Origin: Trypanosoma brucei | Taxonomy: Eukaryota | Assembly: GCA_000002445.1 (NCBI GenBank) | Contig: CH464491.1 | Location: 4,928,001-4,992,000 of the forward strand | Direction of reading: 5' to 3' | Length of the DNA stretch: 64,000 nucleotides | In this document: piece by piece, positions 1-6,000 of the stretch | How the letters are laid out: each line of letters begins with the position of its first letter | Numbering within the stretch: position 1 is the first letter of the stretch | Position numbers: made by a program

Positions 1-3000
1 GTCCGAGCTGCCGTTGCACTTGCCATCGGTATGCGGTTTGCCCAGGACGTACATGGCTGGTCCGGTTGATGCCGCCGCTGCTTGGGCCCCGATTAGCGTT
101 GTAAAGCTATTTAGCTGTTGTCGGATAATCTGTCCTGTTATGCCGCTGGGTGGCTTTTTGAGGCCGCAACCGTTTTTCAATTTTGTGTATTCGGTGGCGG
201 TGGTTGTTTTGCCGCTACCGTCTCCTACTGTCTTTATGCTTATTCCATGTTTGCAAATGTTGTTGCCGTTGGTCCTGGTTTTCGCCGCTATACAGATCCA
301 CATTAAGTCGTGGCTTACTGAGATTGCTATTTTTTCCTTGGTTGCGCCGGCTGATTTGCAGTGCTCATCGATGTTAGTTTCAAGTTTCGCCTGCTCAAAC
401 TTGTTGTTGCCGTCGCCGTACAGTGCTTCCAAGATAAGCGTCTTTGCGTTGTCCGTTTCTGTGTTCGCTGATACCGCGTTGGCCTGGATGTGCTCTAGGA
501 TTGCCTTGGCGCGTTCGTGAATTTTACTAATGAAGGCGTTGGCTGCTGCTTTGGCCTCTGGGTTTTGCGGCATCGGGTAAGCTGCTTTTTGTGGATTGCC
601 TGTTTTGGCGGCTATAGCTTCCAGGTTTTGTTTTCATTGTTTTATTTGTTCGAGTTTTTGGTCGTCTTTCGTCGGCGAAAGTTCACCGTCTTTGTTCGTC
701 TTGAACGATTCCGTTGCCGTCGTCAGGTTGAGGAGAAATATGTCGTTGACAATTGCCGCTGCTGTTCTCGTGTCTAGTGTTATTGACAGGTCAGGCGCAC
801 CTTTTCCGAGACTGAGAAGGTCACAGAGCGCTTTGTATTCCCCAGCATTTCTGTTTGTTGCGGACACCGTTAAGGCAGCTCCAAATAGACACAGTGCGCC
901 GAGTACTTTGCTCATGTTTGTGGTTCGAAGTTCATTTTTTCGCAGATCCATCTTTGTTTGTCGTATTGGCTTAGATATGTGCTGTGCGCGCATAAGGGTG
1001 ATTTGCGTCATGTGGTGAAAAAGGGCGTAGAACAGCATACAGGACATTAAGTACTCGGTGATTTTTGACATTTTAGTTTTACTCCCTGACAGCCTGGCTA
1101 CGAGTAATTAGGTTGCGTACTGGGGCCCCGATGTTCCTTGTCTGTATGGCAGGAAGTGTTGGCCTTTCTTCAGAATTTCTTAGTTTTAACCAAACCCCTC
1201 TGTCAGCCGCTTCACCACAGATACTCCCAGATTCAAAATCCTATTTTTTCCATCTATTGCATATTTTTGAAACGTTTTCAAAGAGTTCGTACTAAACCCC
1301 CTTCCTTCCAACTGTTCACACCAAATAATTTTTTTTTACAATCATCTTAGCTTTCCCTTTCCACGCAATTGATTTTCCAGGAAAATGAATAAATGGAGAC
1401 TCTCCAACCACTTTACTATTTAGAATAGAAAAGAATCTCTCCTCATAATTCAATCCAATCATTCCTATCCTCAAAACTAATCTTTGCCTAACAGCTTATT
1501 TTCGAATTGCACATCAAATGAGAAAAAGTTTGCATATACTTTGATCTGACCACCACTCCTCGCTTCCTTAGTATTTCATTAAATGCATGTTCAAAACTTT
1601 TAAAAGCCCACACTCCTGCTGTTAAACCACCACCATTGAGATAAGGTTTGCCACTAGGAGTTGATATTAGTAAATTAGTTAATTTTTCATTCTCTTCTAT
1701 CCTGTTTCCAACATTAAAAAACTAATAACATCTCTCCACACACTCTTTGTGATACGAATTCATAACCAAATCTAACTGAGGAGCATAACATTCTGATGTT
1801 GTCATGAATATAATAGGGGAAATGTGATTCTCTTTTGCTATATCTTCTTCACTAAACTTCTCTTCATTTTCCGCACTATTTTCTATAAAATATTCCACAC
1901 ATTTTCATATTTTTCTCCGTCACTAACTATAACATCAGATCTATCCAAATGAATTTAAATATCCTCATGACTTGTATTATGGCTTTTCAAAAATTTCAGA
2001 ACCCATCTAGGCCATTTGATATGACTGTACAAACCCCTCATTTCAATTGTGATAATTTCAATATTACTTAGTTTGGCACTCAACACGAGTCTACACCATC
2101 CTTGATTTGCATGAGTTTGAACTACAACTGCAAACACTCTGTAGTTTTTTATTTTAACCTTGCAGTTAAAGCGGTAGAAGAACCACTAACAATGACAAAA
2201 GGGTGGTACTAGCCTTGACCGGTCCTTTGAAGTTAGATAAAGAGGGTCGGAAGGGATAGTAGCATGGTAAAAGCTGGTAGTTCTATAGCGGTCATGTTTT
2301 CATATAGATATCAGTGGCTGATTGTCCATGTTTTTTTAATTTTTTGTTTATGTTAAATTAAAAACGCCGCGTTAACATCGAAACTCTGCCCACCGTTCGT
2401 CAATTTTTGTAAGCTTTTTAACCAGAGGCTTCAGCATAGAATCATATTTGTAGCGGTTTTTGAGGTGTATGTAGTCTTCTTCGCTTATGTGATGGAAAAC
2501 GATAGTTTTTTCAGGCGTTAAATTAGTTGCGTGAAAAGCGCTCCTGTTTGCATGCATTACATACCAACAATCTTGCATCTCTACTGTCAGCAAACCATCA
2601 AATTTCAGTCTATTCCTTAATACCTCTCCCACCATAATATCTTCATTAAGTGCTCTAAAATCGATATTTCAAAATTTCTGAATTTAATTGGTGATTTTAC
2701 TAACTTTCTCAAAGGATCATAATCAACAATTTCCTTAAATACATCTCTTGATAGTGTGGAAGCATAACCAATAGTGTGCCATGTAATTTCATCACTAAAT
2801 TCTTTGGGATAACCAACAGCTCTTTCCATATTCAATTTCTATCGTGGCAATATTTTAAGGTGCTGTAAATACAATAGCACTCTCATAAAAATATCATCAT
2901 CTGCTTTCATTATACAGGAAATAGTTGGTTTAAATATTTCAACTGCAAATTTGAACCACAAGTATGTTTTTCTACTCATTGTCAGTTCCGCTTCCCATCC

Positions 3001-6000
3001 CCAATTACCCGCATCTCACACTTTCTCATTTGTTGTTGGATTCACATCGCAAACAGGCAAAATAATAATATCCTGATTTAACTCTGATTCTTCTTCAACA
3101 ATTTCTCTGAGCTCGCAATTGTTATTTGTATGAGGTGAAAGTGCATACACTATAAGCAACTTTCCAGTGAAATTATTTAATTTTCTCGCCACTTCAGGAT
3201 AACTCCAACACGTTTCTCTCTGTAAATGTCGTCGTCTAAATCCTTCATCATTATCTATTGAAGGTATTCCAGCTACAACCAAATAATTTTCAGTTCTCCA
3301 AATCCTCCTCACATCCAGCGGAACAAATCTCATATACTGATTTTCACCAATTTCAAGTGAAGTGGATTCACCTTTGTCATACAAGCTGTACAGCAATACG
3401 AGTAGATTAATACCCATAACAATAAAAGTTAAACAGCATATAGTCCCATAAATACTTCCTATACACTTCATAAGATGTTATCATAATAGCAATAAAGAAC
3501 TTGAAATTCCTTAAAGATTAATAGAAACCCATAAAAAGAGAAGAAGGCAGTTGCGCAGATAATATGATTAGTTATGAAGTAATGTTTACCAATATATATG
3601 CATTGCTCTGATATTTTTATGATATAGCTGTTAAACAGTGTGTGCTCAATGTTTAGGGATTATATTTCATCACGGACCTACACTTTTTATTTTTTTAATT
3701 CACATTCAAGTACGACTGCTGCTGCACGCTACATGAACCCCTATGTACATTGTTATGGCAGTTAAAGTAGTCAGATACACTACTGGTCCTCTTGTTTACT
3801 ATGAAGTTTAAGCCTTTGTGCTGTAAATATGCCAACTATCCACTTTCCCAAATTTTCCACCGATTTGGCTTCTTAGCTATTTCTACTGTTGTTGCAGATA
3901 ATATAGTAACTCCATTTGGGCCGCACACTAGACTGAGCGTGCTTCTTATATGCCGCCCATAACCACCATATGTATGATAATGTCCATCGTCATGTTTGTG
4001 TATGGAACTACACATATTCCATTTCTCCCTCTATTTGTATTTCTGCGCGTCCTTCAATATAATCCTCAGCGCTCTCCCACTTACTTACATATATTGCGTA
4101 TTTCATAGCTATAAGTGCCTCTAGTTTTGCCGTTCATTGCCCCTCAACCGCTACTTTTATTATAATATTCGTATATTCACACTCACAATACTCCCCTTTA
4201 TTACTATCATTACTATTACTATAATCTTCCATTACTCCTAAGATGAAAACAAACAAAATGAATTAAATTAGAAAATTTATCATTTTTCACAGTCTATCTT
4301 TTTTGTTTTTAACCCATAGGCACAAGACATGCACATTTTAATAACTTTTAAAAAGATTCACGTTTTCATCAAAAAATTTTAAAATATATCAAAAAATTTT
4401 CGAAATATAAATCTCATAAACTTCACAAAATTGAGCAGAAAAGCTTAATATCTTTAAAATGATAAAATTCTTCTAAACCCACAAAAGCAGCAGCCATCAG
4501 AGTAAATTTCTTATGGAAGAGAAAGCTTGAATCCTTGCAACTATTATTTTCCCATTTGCAGTTCTATCCGTTGTTGCACGCTGTCTGGTTCTGAAAGCTG
4601 CTGCACACAGGTTTTCCAGTATTATCCCCGTCTTTCTTTTCTCCTTTTTTGTCTCCTGAGTCTGCTTTCTTAGGAGAACCCTCAGCATTGGTGGGTTTTT
4701 CTTGTGGCACCGATTTTTGGTTTGTTTGAGCAGTAAATAAAGCCAGTGCTTTGTGGAAATCACTTCCGCTTGCCGTCTCTATGCTCTTTGGTTGAGCGTC
4801 GTCTTGTAGCTTTAGAGCCGCGTTATTTTCTGTCAGTTTCGCTAAAAACTTCTTGGTAATGGTTTCGTCTCCTTTGCCAAGTATGTTCGCTACTGCTGCT
4901 TTGCGCTTATCTGGGTCTTGCTCTTTGTCGCTTTTCGTGGTTAGGATTAGTGCTGTGTCTTGTGCGGTCGGATCGTCTGCTAGTTCGTCTAGGGTTTCGC
5001 TACCGAGTGCTGGTTGGGTTGTTAGGTCAGCCTTTCGCGCAAGGCATACTTTGTACACAAGCTCGCTTGTGTCTGTTGCGTCGTAGTTTTCGTTTGTTTT
5101 TGGTGTCTTGCACGCGTTTTCTGTTTCGATGGAGACGGTTGTGTGTGTGAGCACCTTTTGTTCTGTTGCTAAGCCTTGAATGGGTATGCCATTGCTTCTA
5201 ACACCTGCGTCGTTTCCGCAGCCGTCACTGCCTGTTAGAGCTCTTTTAGCTGCTGGGCTGCTTTTTTCCTGCAACGACGCGAACAGTGGCATCGCTTTGA
5301 TTGTGGCCGCACTAAGCAACTTAAGCTGTGTTTCGGTGGTTACCCGCTCGTCCACCTTGTTAAGTTCTGTTTCCGCTGCTTCCGTGTTGCATTTTCTGTT
5401 AGCTGGCGGCGTCACGATTGGGTGTACTCTGCATCTTGTGTTGAAGTTGCTGTTTTGTGGGTTGGTGGCCGAGTCCGCTTCTGCCGCCACTGTGTACTTT
5501 GCGTCTGCCTTAACAGGCGTTATACGTGATAGAAGTAATACCCCTGTTCTGTGTCCCACATACTCTGAGAGCTAAGTGATTGCTGTCGGTACGGTCTTTT
5601 GTTTGCTGATTTCTTTATCTAGCCACTGCGTTGAAACTGCTTCCAGCAGCGCACATGCCATTCCGAGTTTAGTCGCCGCACGTTGTTCCGCTGCGAGTCT
5701 GAGTTGTTTCTGTTGGTTGCTCAAGGTTTGAACTGTACCGAATAGTTCGGTTAGCTTGCCTGAAAAATGCGTTAGCAAGTTGGCCACGTATTTTCTCTCA
5801 GTACAGTCGTCTTGTACTGCTTTAGCCGGTGTTCCTGGAGTGGCCAGTGCCACGTTGGTTGTTACAAGTAAGGCTGTGGCTATTAACAACATAGTCTACT
5901 TATTCTTGGCGGCACCTTTTTTTTGTTACTACTGTGGTTTTGGTGTTCTGCTTGTAGGTCTTTTTGTTAGTGTTTAAAAGGGGGAAGATCCTTGTGGTTT

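What the first reader, a model, noticed from the sequence alone, without database searches (positions are those of the whole stretch)
1300..4262. Recurrent non-VSG cassette inside VSG co-transposed regions: 70-bp repeat -> GT31 glycosyltransferase -> 'family-2' ORF -> VSG
On the minus strand the order is 70-bp repeat (4232-4158), GT31 pseudogene (3471-2372), family-2 ORF (2140-1540), then VSG start (915). The same gene order recurs on the plus strand (70-bp array 15151-15735, GT31 16587-17522, family-2 20616-21215, VSG 21804). The family-2 ORF alone recurs at 59425/58260/56889 (70-bp, family-2, VSG). These ESAG-like genes therefore occupy the position normally held by the ~1.5-kb co-transposed region. 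They have been copied together with, or as part of, VSG cassettes at least three times. Neither the GT31 nor the family-2 gene is typical of the canonical 70-bp-to-VSG interval.
Basis: seen in the sequence. Interest (0 to 1): 0.7.

Follow-up and report, generated by a model that had tools for sequence, protein, structure and literature searches.

The report
Dead ESAG3 and glycosyltransferase genes in VSG cassettes
The "non-VSG cassette" is a pair of decayed glycosyltransferase genes (an ESAG3 pseudogene and a GT67-family pseudogene) riding inside silent VSG cassettes of a Trypanosoma brucei TREU927 subtelomeric array, which is a real but already documented and largely ordinary feature of these arrays.

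Summary
The window is T. b. brucei TREU927, on a 5.26-Mb record that I take to be chromosome 11, in a subtelomeric VSG array. GT 2552-3527 matches 16532-17510 at 79% nt. "Family-2" 1379-2148 matches 57509-58282 at 80%, and 1210-2157 matches 20681-21543 at 70-79%.

"Family-2" is ESAG3: the consensus is 86% identical to expression-site ESAG3 (E 2e-159). The "GT31" gene belongs to the trypanosome UDP-Gal/UDP-GlcNAc glycosyltransferase family, CAZy GT67. All five copies are pseudogenes.

One point is wrong. In the plus-strand locus a B-type VSG pseudogene and a second 70-bp repeat pair lie between the GT and ESAG3 relics. That locus is therefore two consecutive cassettes, not one.

New detail: all four long cassettes share a ~0.7-0.8-kb spacer after the 70-bp repeat, with one common breakpoint. 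They are one old cassette lineage, and there is no detectable homology between the end of ESAG3 and the VSG start.

ESAG3 pseudogenes in VSG arrays, and 3' of 70-bp repeats in expression sites BES7 and BES15, are already published. One untested lead remains: all such cassettes carry class-B VSGs, the class that includes ESAG3's demonstrated substrate.

The parts
4147..4225 (-). Single 70-bp repeat unit that opens the minus-strand cassette
   Evidence: Exact 29-nt core at 4158-4186. nhmmer with a 70-bp profile gives E 3.9e-15.
3528..4146 (-). Post-70-bp spacer, homologous to the spacers of the three other GT/ESAG3-bearing cassettes
   Evidence: Local alignments to 19793-20680, 58283-59256 and 15734-16531 give z 10-20 and scores 88-115, against 31-39 for reversed controls. 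MAFFT alignment. nhmmer E 7.8e-123.
2372..3471 (-). Full-length pseudogene of a UDP-Gal/UDP-GlcNAc-dependent glycosyltransferase (beta3GT superfamily, CAZy GT67). It has an N-terminal membrane anchor and a DDD motif. It is broken by 2 in-frame stops and 1 frameshift.
   Evidence: ORF fragments. Pfam Galactosyl_T 23.1 bits against a cut-off of 23, scored on a composite query. 64-67% aa identity to Tb927 glycosyltransferases. Alignment. 79% nt identity to 16532-17510.
2158..2371 (-). Unique 214-bp junction (3' flank of the GT relic). It has no counterpart in the other cassettes.
   Evidence: Local alignment z -0.5 to 0.8 against the equivalent regions.
1171..2157 (-). It is 5'-truncated at about codon 40 and has at least 5 in-frame stops and 2 frameshifts.
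   Evidence: tblastn with ESAG3 covers aa 42-315 at 65-75% identity. nhmmer places it at 2155-1171. Frame translations.
916..1170 (-). Unique sequence between the ESAG3 relic and the VSG start
   Evidence: No homology to the equivalent stretches of the other two cassettes.
1..915 (-). B-type VSG pseudogene (ATG at 915, in-frame stop at 634-636). It runs off the left end of the window.
   Evidence: Signal peptide and sequence. Pfam VSG_B E 2.7e-07. Stop-free segments.
15151..15733 (+). 70-bp repeat / (TAA)n array with a 100-N assembly gap (15362-15461)
15773..16532 (+). Spacer homologous to 3528-4146, 19805-20510 and 58446-59254
   Evidence: nhmmer E 6.2e-156.
16587..17606 (+). Second GT67-family glycosyltransferase pseudogene. 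It has in-frame stops at 17097 and 17520, and its C-terminus is lost after about aa 343.
17900..19440 (+).
   Evidence: Pfam VSG_B E 1.4e-18 on 18239-18901. N-terminal frames. VSG 3'-end-like match at 19342-19438.
19635..19792 (+).
   Evidence: nhmmer E 1.4e-16 and 1.1e-15. Cores.
19805..20510 (+). Spacer of the shared type
   Evidence: Score 238 (z 45) against 58296-59103. nhmmer E 5.1e-155.
20565..21583 (+). ESAG3 pseudogene with stops, frameshifts and an internal deletion of about 29 codons. It extends to codon 368.
21804..23333 (+). B-type VSG pseudogene (ATG at 21804, in-frame stops from codon 36 onward), ending with an exact VSG 3'-UTR 16-mer at 23318-23333
   Evidence: Pfam VSG_B E 4.1e-36. 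16-mer.
59257..59421 (-). 70-bp repeats of the third cassette
58446..59254 (-). Spacer of the shared type
   Evidence: nhmmer E 3.4e-167.
57300..58399 (-). ESAG3 pseudogene and the best-preserved copy (81% aa identity to intact ESAG3). It has at least 5 stops and 2 frameshifts.
55450..56889 (-). B-type VSG pseudogene (ATG at 56889, stop at codon 5)
   Evidence: Pfam VSG_B E 2.6e-20.

Best explanation
Region 1300-4262 is the upstream half of one silent VSG cassette in a subtelomeric VSG array of T. b. brucei TREU927.

Anatomy. Between its 70-bp repeat and its B-type VSG pseudogene lie two dead genes in the VSG's orientation. One is a GT67-family UDP-Gal/UDP-GlcNAc glycosyltransferase pseudogene. 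The other is a 5'-truncated pseudogene of ESAG3, the expression-site gene recently reported to be the GT-A O-glucosyltransferase of class-B VSGs.

Function. Neither relic can encode a protein. They are passengers.

Why they persist (inference from the established model of VSG duplicative transposition). Array expansion, and gene conversion into expression sites, copy everything from the 70-bp repeats to the VSG 3' end. Anything lodged in that interval is therefore carried along and decays neutrally.

Lineage within the window (shown). The four cassettes that carry such relics form one old lineage. All four share a 0.7-0.8-kb spacer after the 70-bp repeat, up to one common point: about 3530, 16530, 20507 and 58440. 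Beyond that point, two cassettes continue into ESAG3 and two continue into the GT gene. In the focal cassette a GT fragment of about 1.37 kb replaced the end of the spacer and the first ~40 codons of ESAG3.

What is shown: the identities, the pseudogene status, the spacer homology, and the breakpoint. What is inferred: the hitch-hiking mechanism and the order of events.
For: Source: three intact VSG ORFs of the window are exact matches to TREU927 proteins XP_829778-80 on a 5,261,801-bp record.

ESAG3 identity: the consensus hits ESAG3 at 86% identity, E 2.3e-159. The members of that cluster are named ESAG3 and come from Lister 427, TREU927 and gambiense expression sites. The catalytic residues named in the ESAG3 preprint (D110, D113, H297, G215/216, E244/Q245) are recognisable in the relics, but the frames are broken.

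GT identity: and PMC8477195.

Pseudogene status.

Collinearity and its limits. Shared spacer and breakpoint.

Independent decay: the relics are 58-67% identical to each other and 71-81% identical to intact ESAG3.

Literature:
- ESAG3 'is also in VSG arrays' (PMC3607257).
- ESAG3 is the one ESAG family that is not monophyletic between expression-site and other loci (PMC3605285).
- ESAG3 pseudogenes lie 3' of the 70-bp repeats in BES7 and BES15. This fits cassettes of this type having been copied into expression sites (PMC2567434).
- Glycosyltransferase genes and pseudogenes are frequent in T. brucei subtelomeres (PMC4288722; PMC5853035).
Against: - Co-duplication with the VSG itself is not demonstrable. 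No homology survives between the ESAG3 3' end and the VSG ATG, and the three downstream VSGs are only weakly similar.
- I could not count these cassettes genome-wide or compare them with expression-site DNA, because no trypanosome genome is reachable with these tools. Searches failed.
- The order of events at the GT/ESAG3 junction (replacement versus deletion) is a reconstruction from four sequences.
- Lack of function is inferred from broken reading frames. A role as non-coding homology is not excluded.
Confidence: 0.85

Rival explanations
1. Enzyme-substrate linkage. The ESAG3 copies are relics of a once-functional arrangement in which the O-glucosyltransferase gene travelled with class-B VSG genes, so that a switch delivered both substrate and enzyme. 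On this view the association with class-B cassettes is non-random and goes beyond plain common descent.
For: - All three ESAG3-relic cassettes, and the GT-relic cassette, carry Pfam VSG_B genes. Seven of about 15 VSGs in the window are B-type.
- My hypergeometric calculation gives P = 0.077 for 3 of 3 and P = 0.026 for 4 of 4.
- The two Lister 427 expression sites with an ESAG3 pseudogene 3' of the 70-bp repeats carry VSG3 and VSG11. Both are O-glycosylated, and VSG3 is class B.
- ESAG3 glucosylates VSG3 in vivo and is stimulated by other class-B VSG peptides in vitro.
Against: - n = 5, and the cases are not independent if the cassettes descend from one B-type ancestor. The shared spacer suggests exactly that.
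- All array copies seen here are dead.
- Functional ESAG3 copies sit far upstream in expression sites and serve whichever VSG is inserted.
- Three other B-type cassettes in the window lack ESAG3.
Confidence: 0.15
2. Recombination anchor. The ESAG3 relic is retained because it offers about 1 kb of homology to the ESAG3 copies inside expression sites. That would give an alternative upstream crossover point for gene conversion, in addition to the 70-bp repeats.
For: - Hertz-Fowler et al. note that frequent recombination breakpoints in expression sites coincide with ESAG3 loci, and propose a role in orienting sites before exchange.
- ESAG3 is the only ESAG family that mixes between expression-site and other loci.
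- The relics keep the orientation of the VSG in all three cases.
Against: - Protein identity to intact ESAG3 is only 71-81%, and the relics are about 79% identical to each other at nucleotide level. Nucleotide identity to expression-site ESAG3 could not be measured. From general knowledge, homologous recombination in T. brucei drops steeply with divergence.
- The copies decay like neutral DNA, with stops, frameshifts and a 29-codon deletion.
- Conversion from ESAG3 would delete ESAG2, ESAG11, ESAG1 and the 70-bp array from the expression site.
Confidence: 0.07
3. Independent insertions. ESAG3 and GT fragments landed separately in unrelated cassettes, for example through a local hot spot, rather than being inherited from one ancestral cassette.
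For: - The VSGs and the stretches between ESAG3 and the VSG are unrelated.
- The relics are as far from each other as from intact ESAG3.
Against: - The 0.7-0.8-kb spacers upstream of the relics are homologous in all four cassettes, and they diverge at one shared point.
- The distal half of that spacer is found nowhere else in the window.
Confidence: 0.08
4. Assembly artefact. Collapsed or chimeric assembly of a repetitive subtelomere created the apparent order.
For: The window has three 100-N gaps and scattered single Ns. One gap lies inside the 70-bp array at 15362-15461.
Against: - No gap lies inside 1-4600, 16500-23400 or 55400-59500.
- The copies differ by 20-30%, so they cannot be collapsed repeats.
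- The same arrangement is independently reported in cloned Lister 427 expression sites.
Confidence: 0.02

Closest known systems
ESAG3 (cell-surface phylome Fam53, ESAG3 sensu stricto) and its subtelomeric pseudogenes in T. brucei
   Same: The three 'family-2' copies are 71-81% identical in protein to intact expression-site ESAG3, and their consensus is 86% identical. The GT-A DXXD and C-terminal His positions are recognisable. Their presence as pseudogenes in VSG arrays matches published descriptions.
   Different: All three are dead, with at least 5 stops or frameshifts each. One lacks the first ~40 codons and one has an internal deletion. They lie downstream of a 70-bp repeat, whereas canonical expression-site ESAG3 copies lie upstream of the 70-bp array.
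ESAG3 pseudogene 3' of the 70-bp repeats in Lister 427 BES7 (VSG 427-3) and BES15 (VSG 427-11), Hertz-Fowler et al. 2008
   Same: The order is the same: 70-bp repeat, ESAG3 pseudogene, VSG. In all cases the downstream VSG is class B.
   Different: Those copies are telomeric, in expression sites of another strain. These are array copies. I could not align the DNA, so orthology of the cassettes is untested.
T. brucei UDP-Gal/UDP-GlcNAc-dependent glycosyltransferases (beta3GT superfamily, CAZy GT67; TbGT3, 8, 10, 11, 15), subtelomerically expanded lineages
   Same: Type II membrane anchor, conserved DDD motif, a Pfam Galactosyl_T region, and 64-67% identity to annotated Tb927 members. The subtelomeric location fits PMC5853035 and PMC4288722.
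   Different: Both copies are pseudogenes and both lie inside VSG cassettes. GT31 is the family of the related animal beta3-glycosyltransferases.
VSG co-transposed region (the 1-2 kb between the 70-bp repeats and the VSG)
   Same: Same position. The first ~300 bp after the 70-bp repeat is weakly conserved with at least five ordinary cassettes in the window.
   Different: The interval is 2.0-3.2 kb instead of 0.6-1.65 kb, because it contains gene relics. The distal half of the spacer is specific to this cassette lineage.

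Membership tests
ESAG3 (Fam53 sensu stricto) | High sequence identity to expression-site ESAG3 proteins | tested here: met
   The consensus is 86% identical over 94% of the query, E 2.3e-159, to a cluster whose members are named ESAG3. Individual copies are 71-81% identical.
ESAG3 (Fam53 sensu stricto) | GT-A catalytic residues (DXXD D110/D113, H297, G215-G216, E244/Q245, as defined in the 2026 preprint) | tested here: inconclusive
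   D110, D113, H297 and G216 are present in all three copies. G215, E244, Q245, W242, Y82 and H84 are each lost in one copy. This has no functional bearing, because the reading frames are broken.
ESAG3 (Fam53 sensu stricto) | Intact ORF of about 368 codons with an N-terminal signal peptide | tested here: not met
   Each copy has multiple in-frame stops and frameshifts. Copy 1 starts at about codon 40. They are pseudogene members of the family, not functional genes.
ESAG3 (Fam53 sensu stricto) | Location in a telomeric bloodstream expression site | tested here: not met
   The window is a multi-cassette array with about 15 VSGs, an ingi element and no ESAG6/7 or other expression-site genes. The literature accepts array copies as ESAG3 pseudogenes.
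[quoted passage not shown] | Galactosyl_T (PF01762) domain and homology to named trypanosome members | tested here: met
   PF01762 scores 23.1 bits against a cut-off of 23 on a composite conceptual translation of the two copies, which is borderline. [quoted passage not shown]
[quoted passage not shown] | Type II membrane anchor and DXD (DDD) motif | tested here: met
   The alignment shows a hydrophobic N-terminus and an invariant KADDDIF motif.
[quoted passage not shown] | Intact ORF | tested here: not met
   Copy 1 has 2 in-frame stops and 1 frameshift. Copy 2 has stops at 17097 and 17520 and has lost its C-terminus.
[quoted passage not shown] | CAZy assignment to GT67 rather than GT31 | not testable with these tools
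   Taken from PMC8477195. No CAZy library is available here.
Silent VSG cassette | 70-bp repeat(s) upstream, a VSG N-terminal domain gene downstream, and a conserved 3' 16-mer | tested here: met
   70-bp repeats. VSG_B domains. An exact 16-mer at 23318-23333 for the 21804 VSG. The 3' end of the focal VSG lies outside the window.
Co-transposed region | Sequence shown to move with the VSG during duplicative transposition | not testable with these tools
   This needs switch experiments or donor/expression-site comparison. Indirect support comes from ESAG3 pseudogenes 3' of the 70-bp repeats in BES7 and BES15.

The most novel reading that the evidence does not exclude
ESAG3 relics are preferentially linked to class-B VSG cassettes genome-wide. 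Here all three ESAG3-relic cassettes are B-type, as is the GT-only cassette, and in Lister 427 BES7/VSG3 and BES15/VSG11 fit the same pattern. That could be the footprint of an ancestral arrangement in which the O-glucosyltransferase gene travelled next to the class of VSG it modifies. If so, the origin of ESAG3's association with expression sites becomes testable, and ESAG3 relics become a lineage marker for a class-B cassette family.
Probability: 0.2. Interest if true: 0.55.

Novelty: already known. Interest (0 to 1): 0.2.

Why it matters
As given, the finding matters little. ESAG3 pseudogenes and glycosyltransferase pseudogenes interspersed in T. brucei VSG arrays have been described in the literature for years, and ESAG3 pseudogenes downstream of 70-bp repeats were reported in 2008.

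Three things are useful:
- The unnamed 'family-2' is ESAG3, which a 2026 preprint identifies as the O-glucosyltransferase of class-B VSGs.
- The relic-bearing cassettes form one lineage with a shared spacer and breakpoint. They can therefore serve as markers for tracing cassette genealogy and donor usage in switching.
- In the few cases visible here, and in the two published expression sites, the relics accompany class-B VSGs. This is cheap to test genome-wide. If it holds, it bears on why a VSG-modifying enzyme is encoded in expression sites at all.

Tried and rejected
1. Genome-wide context. The look-up of encoding contigs on Tb927 GT homologues and on a window VSG found nothing on record. 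No trypanosome DNA collection is reachable, so the cassette could not be counted genome-wide or compared with expression-site DNA.
2. Marcello & Barry 2007 (by PubMed id and by a guessed PMC id) is not held. The Berriman 2005 genome paper was not looked for.
3. Hidden ESAG3 or GT relics in the ordinary 70-bp-to-VSG intervals. Relaxed tblastn (E up to 20) and nhmmer profiles found none.
4. Homology between the ESAG3 3' end and the VSG start, and between the 214-bp GT/ESAG3 junction and other cassettes: none.
5. Pfam on ORF-like segments of the VSG-poor stretch 26.9-35.3 kb and the GC-rich block 47.8-49.0 kb. Nothing beyond a VSG C-terminal domain.
6. Rfam on the whole window: no hits.
7. A mistake of mine. 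I concatenated all 15 cluster members into one query. The per-copy alignments are still valid, and I redid the search properly.
8. Considered and rejected: that 'family-2' is the C-terminal part of the GT gene. They are separate families. The GT has its own stop at 2372, and ESAG3 occurs without the GT at two loci.

Full report
**What the window is.** Three intact VSG reading frames (35335-36813, 38531-39988, 41971-43452) are exact matches to T. brucei brucei TREU927 proteins XP_829778-80, on a 5,261,801-bp record that I take to be chromosome 11. The window holds about 15 VSG genes or pseudogenes. Seven hit Pfam VSG_B, four hit the A-type model, and four hit neither. It also holds thirteen 70-bp repeat sites, copies of the VSG 3' 16-mer, and one ingi-type retrotransposon. 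Coding polarity changes at about 14 kb and about 47-49 kb. It is a typical subtelomeric VSG array.

**Check of the observation.**
- Minus strand: a single 70-bp unit at 4147-4225, a glycosyltransferase frame from 3471 to 2372, 'family-2' homology at 2157-1171, and a VSG ATG at 915.
- The copies are true homologues. GT 2552-3527 matches 17510-16532 at 79% nucleotide identity over 980 nt.
- Family-2 1379-2148 matches 57509-58282 at 80%, and 1210-2157 matches 21543-20681 at 70-79%. E-values run from 0.0 to 1e-61.
- Relaxed tblastn and nhmmer profiles find no further copies, so the window has three family-2 relics and two GT relics.

One statement is wrong. On the plus strand the GT relic (16587-17606) and the family-2 relic (20565-21583) are not in one cassette. 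Between them lie a B-type VSG pseudogene at about 17900-19440 (Pfam VSG_B E 1.4e-18) and two more 70-bp units at 19635-19792. The three-gene order '70-bp, GT, family-2, VSG' therefore occurs once, at the focal locus. What recurs is '70-bp, ESAG3 relic, VSG' (three times) and '70-bp, GT relic...' (twice).

**What the genes are.** A consensus of the three family-2 copies finds one protein cluster in 5.8 billion sequences, at 86% identity and E 2.3e-159. Its members are named ESAG3 and come from Lister 427, TREU927 and T. b. gambiense expression sites. ESAG3 gives only weak hits to the glycosyltransferase domain of human LH3/PLOD3 (Pfam GT_PLOD E 0.033; PDB E 0.029). This agrees with a 2026 preprint showing that ESAG3 is a Mn2+-dependent, retaining GT-A O-glucosyltransferase. 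It modifies the class-B VSG3 in vivo and is stimulated by other class-B VSG peptides in vitro.

All three window copies are pseudogenes. Each has at least five in-frame stops or frameshifts. Copy 1 lacks the first ~40 codons, and copy 2 has an internal deletion of about 29 codons.

The 'GT31' gene hits Pfam Galactosyl_T at the threshold, on a composite translation of the two copies. [quoted passage not shown] It has the type II anchor and the DDD motif. CAZy places this trypanosome family in GT67 (PMC8477195). Both copies carry stops. The focal one is otherwise full length, and the second has lost its C-terminus.

The interval from the 70-bp repeat to the VSG ATG is 0.6-1.65 kb in eight ordinary cassettes. 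It is 2.0, 2.2, 2.4 and 3.2 kb in the four cassettes with relics. One further 2.6-kb interval contains nothing recognisable.

BLASTN among all intervals finds little shared sequence other than the two gene relics. More sensitive local alignment shows more. The stretches directly after the 70-bp repeat are homologous in all four relic-bearing cassettes. Scores are 88-238, against 31-42 for the same pairs with one sequence reversed, with z of 10-45.

A four-way alignment shows common sequence up to one point: about 3530, 16530, 20507 and 58440. After that point the two GT cassettes continue together into the GT gene. The two ESAG3-only cassettes continue together into the ESAG3 5' end.

A profile of this spacer finds its first ~300 bp after five other 70-bp repeats. 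Its distal half occurs only in these four cassettes.

In the focal cassette a GT fragment of about 1.37 kb (3527-2158, including a unique 214-bp 3' flank) replaces the spacer end and ESAG3 codons 1-40. Downstream of ESAG3 nothing is shared. The 220-415 bp before each VSG ATG do not align (z -1.0 to 0.9), and the VSGs are only faintly similar.

At protein level the ESAG3 relics are 58-67% identical to each other but 71-81% identical to intact ESAG3. This is the pattern expected for independent neutral decay from an ESAG3-like ancestor.

**Most likely explanation.** These are passenger pseudogenes in one old lineage of VSG cassettes. The identities, the pseudogene status, the shared spacer and the single breakpoint are shown here. 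The mechanism is inference from the standard model of VSG duplicative transposition and array expansion. On that model, whatever lies between the 70-bp repeats and the VSG 3' end is copied with the VSG and decays if it is not needed.

The literature fits this reading.
[quoted passage not shown] - ESAG3 is the one ESAG family that mixes between expression-site and other loci (PMC3605285).
- Most expression sites have only the VSG after the 70-bp array. BES7 has an 'ESAG3 pseudogene 3' of 70-bp repeat', and BES15 has two, with extra VSG pseudogenes and 70-bp arrays (PMC2567434). That is what is expected if such cassettes are sometimes copied into expression sites.
- Subtelomeric expansion and variability of the glycosyltransferase family is also documented.

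**Rivals.**
- Independent insertion into unrelated cassettes is made unlikely by the shared spacer and breakpoint.
- A role as a recombination anchor towards expression-site ESAG3 is conceivable, since breakpoints in expression sites coincide with ESAG3. The relics are strongly diverged and visibly decaying, however.
- Assembly error is unlikely. No gap lies in the three loci, and the copies differ by 20-30%.
- The enzyme-substrate linkage idea is treated next, as the most interesting reading my evidence does not exclude.

**A lead worth a cheap test.** All three ESAG3-relic cassettes, and the GT-only cassette, carry B-type VSGs, while 7 of about 15 VSGs in the window are B-type. My hypergeometric calculation gives P = 0.077 and P = 0.026 respectively. 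The two Lister 427 expression sites with an ESAG3 relic after the 70-bp repeats carry VSG3 and VSG11. Both are O-glycosylated, and VSG3 is class B. ESAG3 is now reported to glucosylate VSG3, a class-B VSG.

With five non-independent cases, this may only mean that the lineage began as a B-type cassette. I give a real genome-wide association about 0.2.

**Verdict.** It is not new. 'Family-2' is ESAG3, the GT is a GT67-family pseudogene, and their presence in arrays and downstream of 70-bp repeats is published. Interest is low (0.2). The added value is the lineage anatomy and the class-B lead.

**Limits.** There was no access to trypanosome genome DNA beyond this window. Genome-wide counts, comparison with expression-site sequence and annotation look-up could not be done. 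One key paper, Marcello & Barry 2007, is not in the library.

Noticed in passing
window 17900-19792: A B-type VSG pseudogene and a second pair of 70-bp repeats lie between the plus-strand GT relic and the ESAG3 relic. That locus is therefore two consecutive cassettes.
   Followed up: yes
window 3528-4146, 15773-16532, 19805-20510, 58446-59254: The spacers after the 70-bp repeat are homologous in all four relic-bearing cassettes and diverge at one shared breakpoint. The first ~300 bp of this spacer also occurs after other 70-bp repeats (32728-32998, 37300-37605, 40407-40597, 47295-47577, 62292-62477).
   Followed up: yes
window 1-915, 17900-19440, 21804-23333, 55450-56889: Every cassette with an ESAG3 or GT relic carries a Pfam VSG_B-type VSG. 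The two published expression sites with ESAG3 relics after the 70-bp repeats carry VSG3 and VSG11. Both are O-glycosylated, VSG3 is class B, and VSG3 is the demonstrated ESAG3 substrate.
   Followed up: partly
window 47093-49182: An orphan 70-bp repeat plus spacer (47093-47577) has no VSG after it. It is followed by a GC-rich, strongly GC-skewed block (47762-49018, with long stop-free frames on the minus strand, scattered single Ns and no Pfam hit). A 100-N gap follows, at the convergent change of coding strand.
   Followed up: partly
window 8552-13616 (-): An ingi-type non-LTR retrotransposon (endonuclease, reverse transcriptase, RNase H and zinc-finger domains in two long ORFs). It sits at the divergent strand switch and abuts a VSG (13515-14840, +) that appears to lack its N-terminus.
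   Followed up: partly
window 26917-35334: About 5.7 kb with no recognisable VSG (26917-32632), then a 2.6-kb interval from the 70-bp repeat at 32632-32711 to the VSG at 35335 with no recognisable gene relic. A 100-N gap lies at 29645-29744.
   Followed up: partly
window 15362-15461: A 100-N assembly gap lies inside the long 70-bp/(TAA)n array, so the true length of that array is unknown.
   Followed up: no
window 1171-2157, 20565-21583, 57300-58399: The ESAG3 relics are closer to intact expression-site ESAG3 (71-81% aa) than to each other (58-67%). Intact ESAG3 copies are 91-100% identical among themselves. This star-like pattern indicates old, independent decay.
   Followed up: yes
window 37190-38530, 32712-35334, 61064-62582, 40319-41970, 43791-45200, 24483-25390: Ordinary 70-bp-to-VSG intervals also fall into faint homology groups. 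Local alignment scores are 273 for 61064-62582 against 32712-35334, and 185 for 40319-41970 against 43791-45200, against about 40-50 for reversed controls. The 'co-transposed regions' thus have their own family structure.
   Followed up: partly
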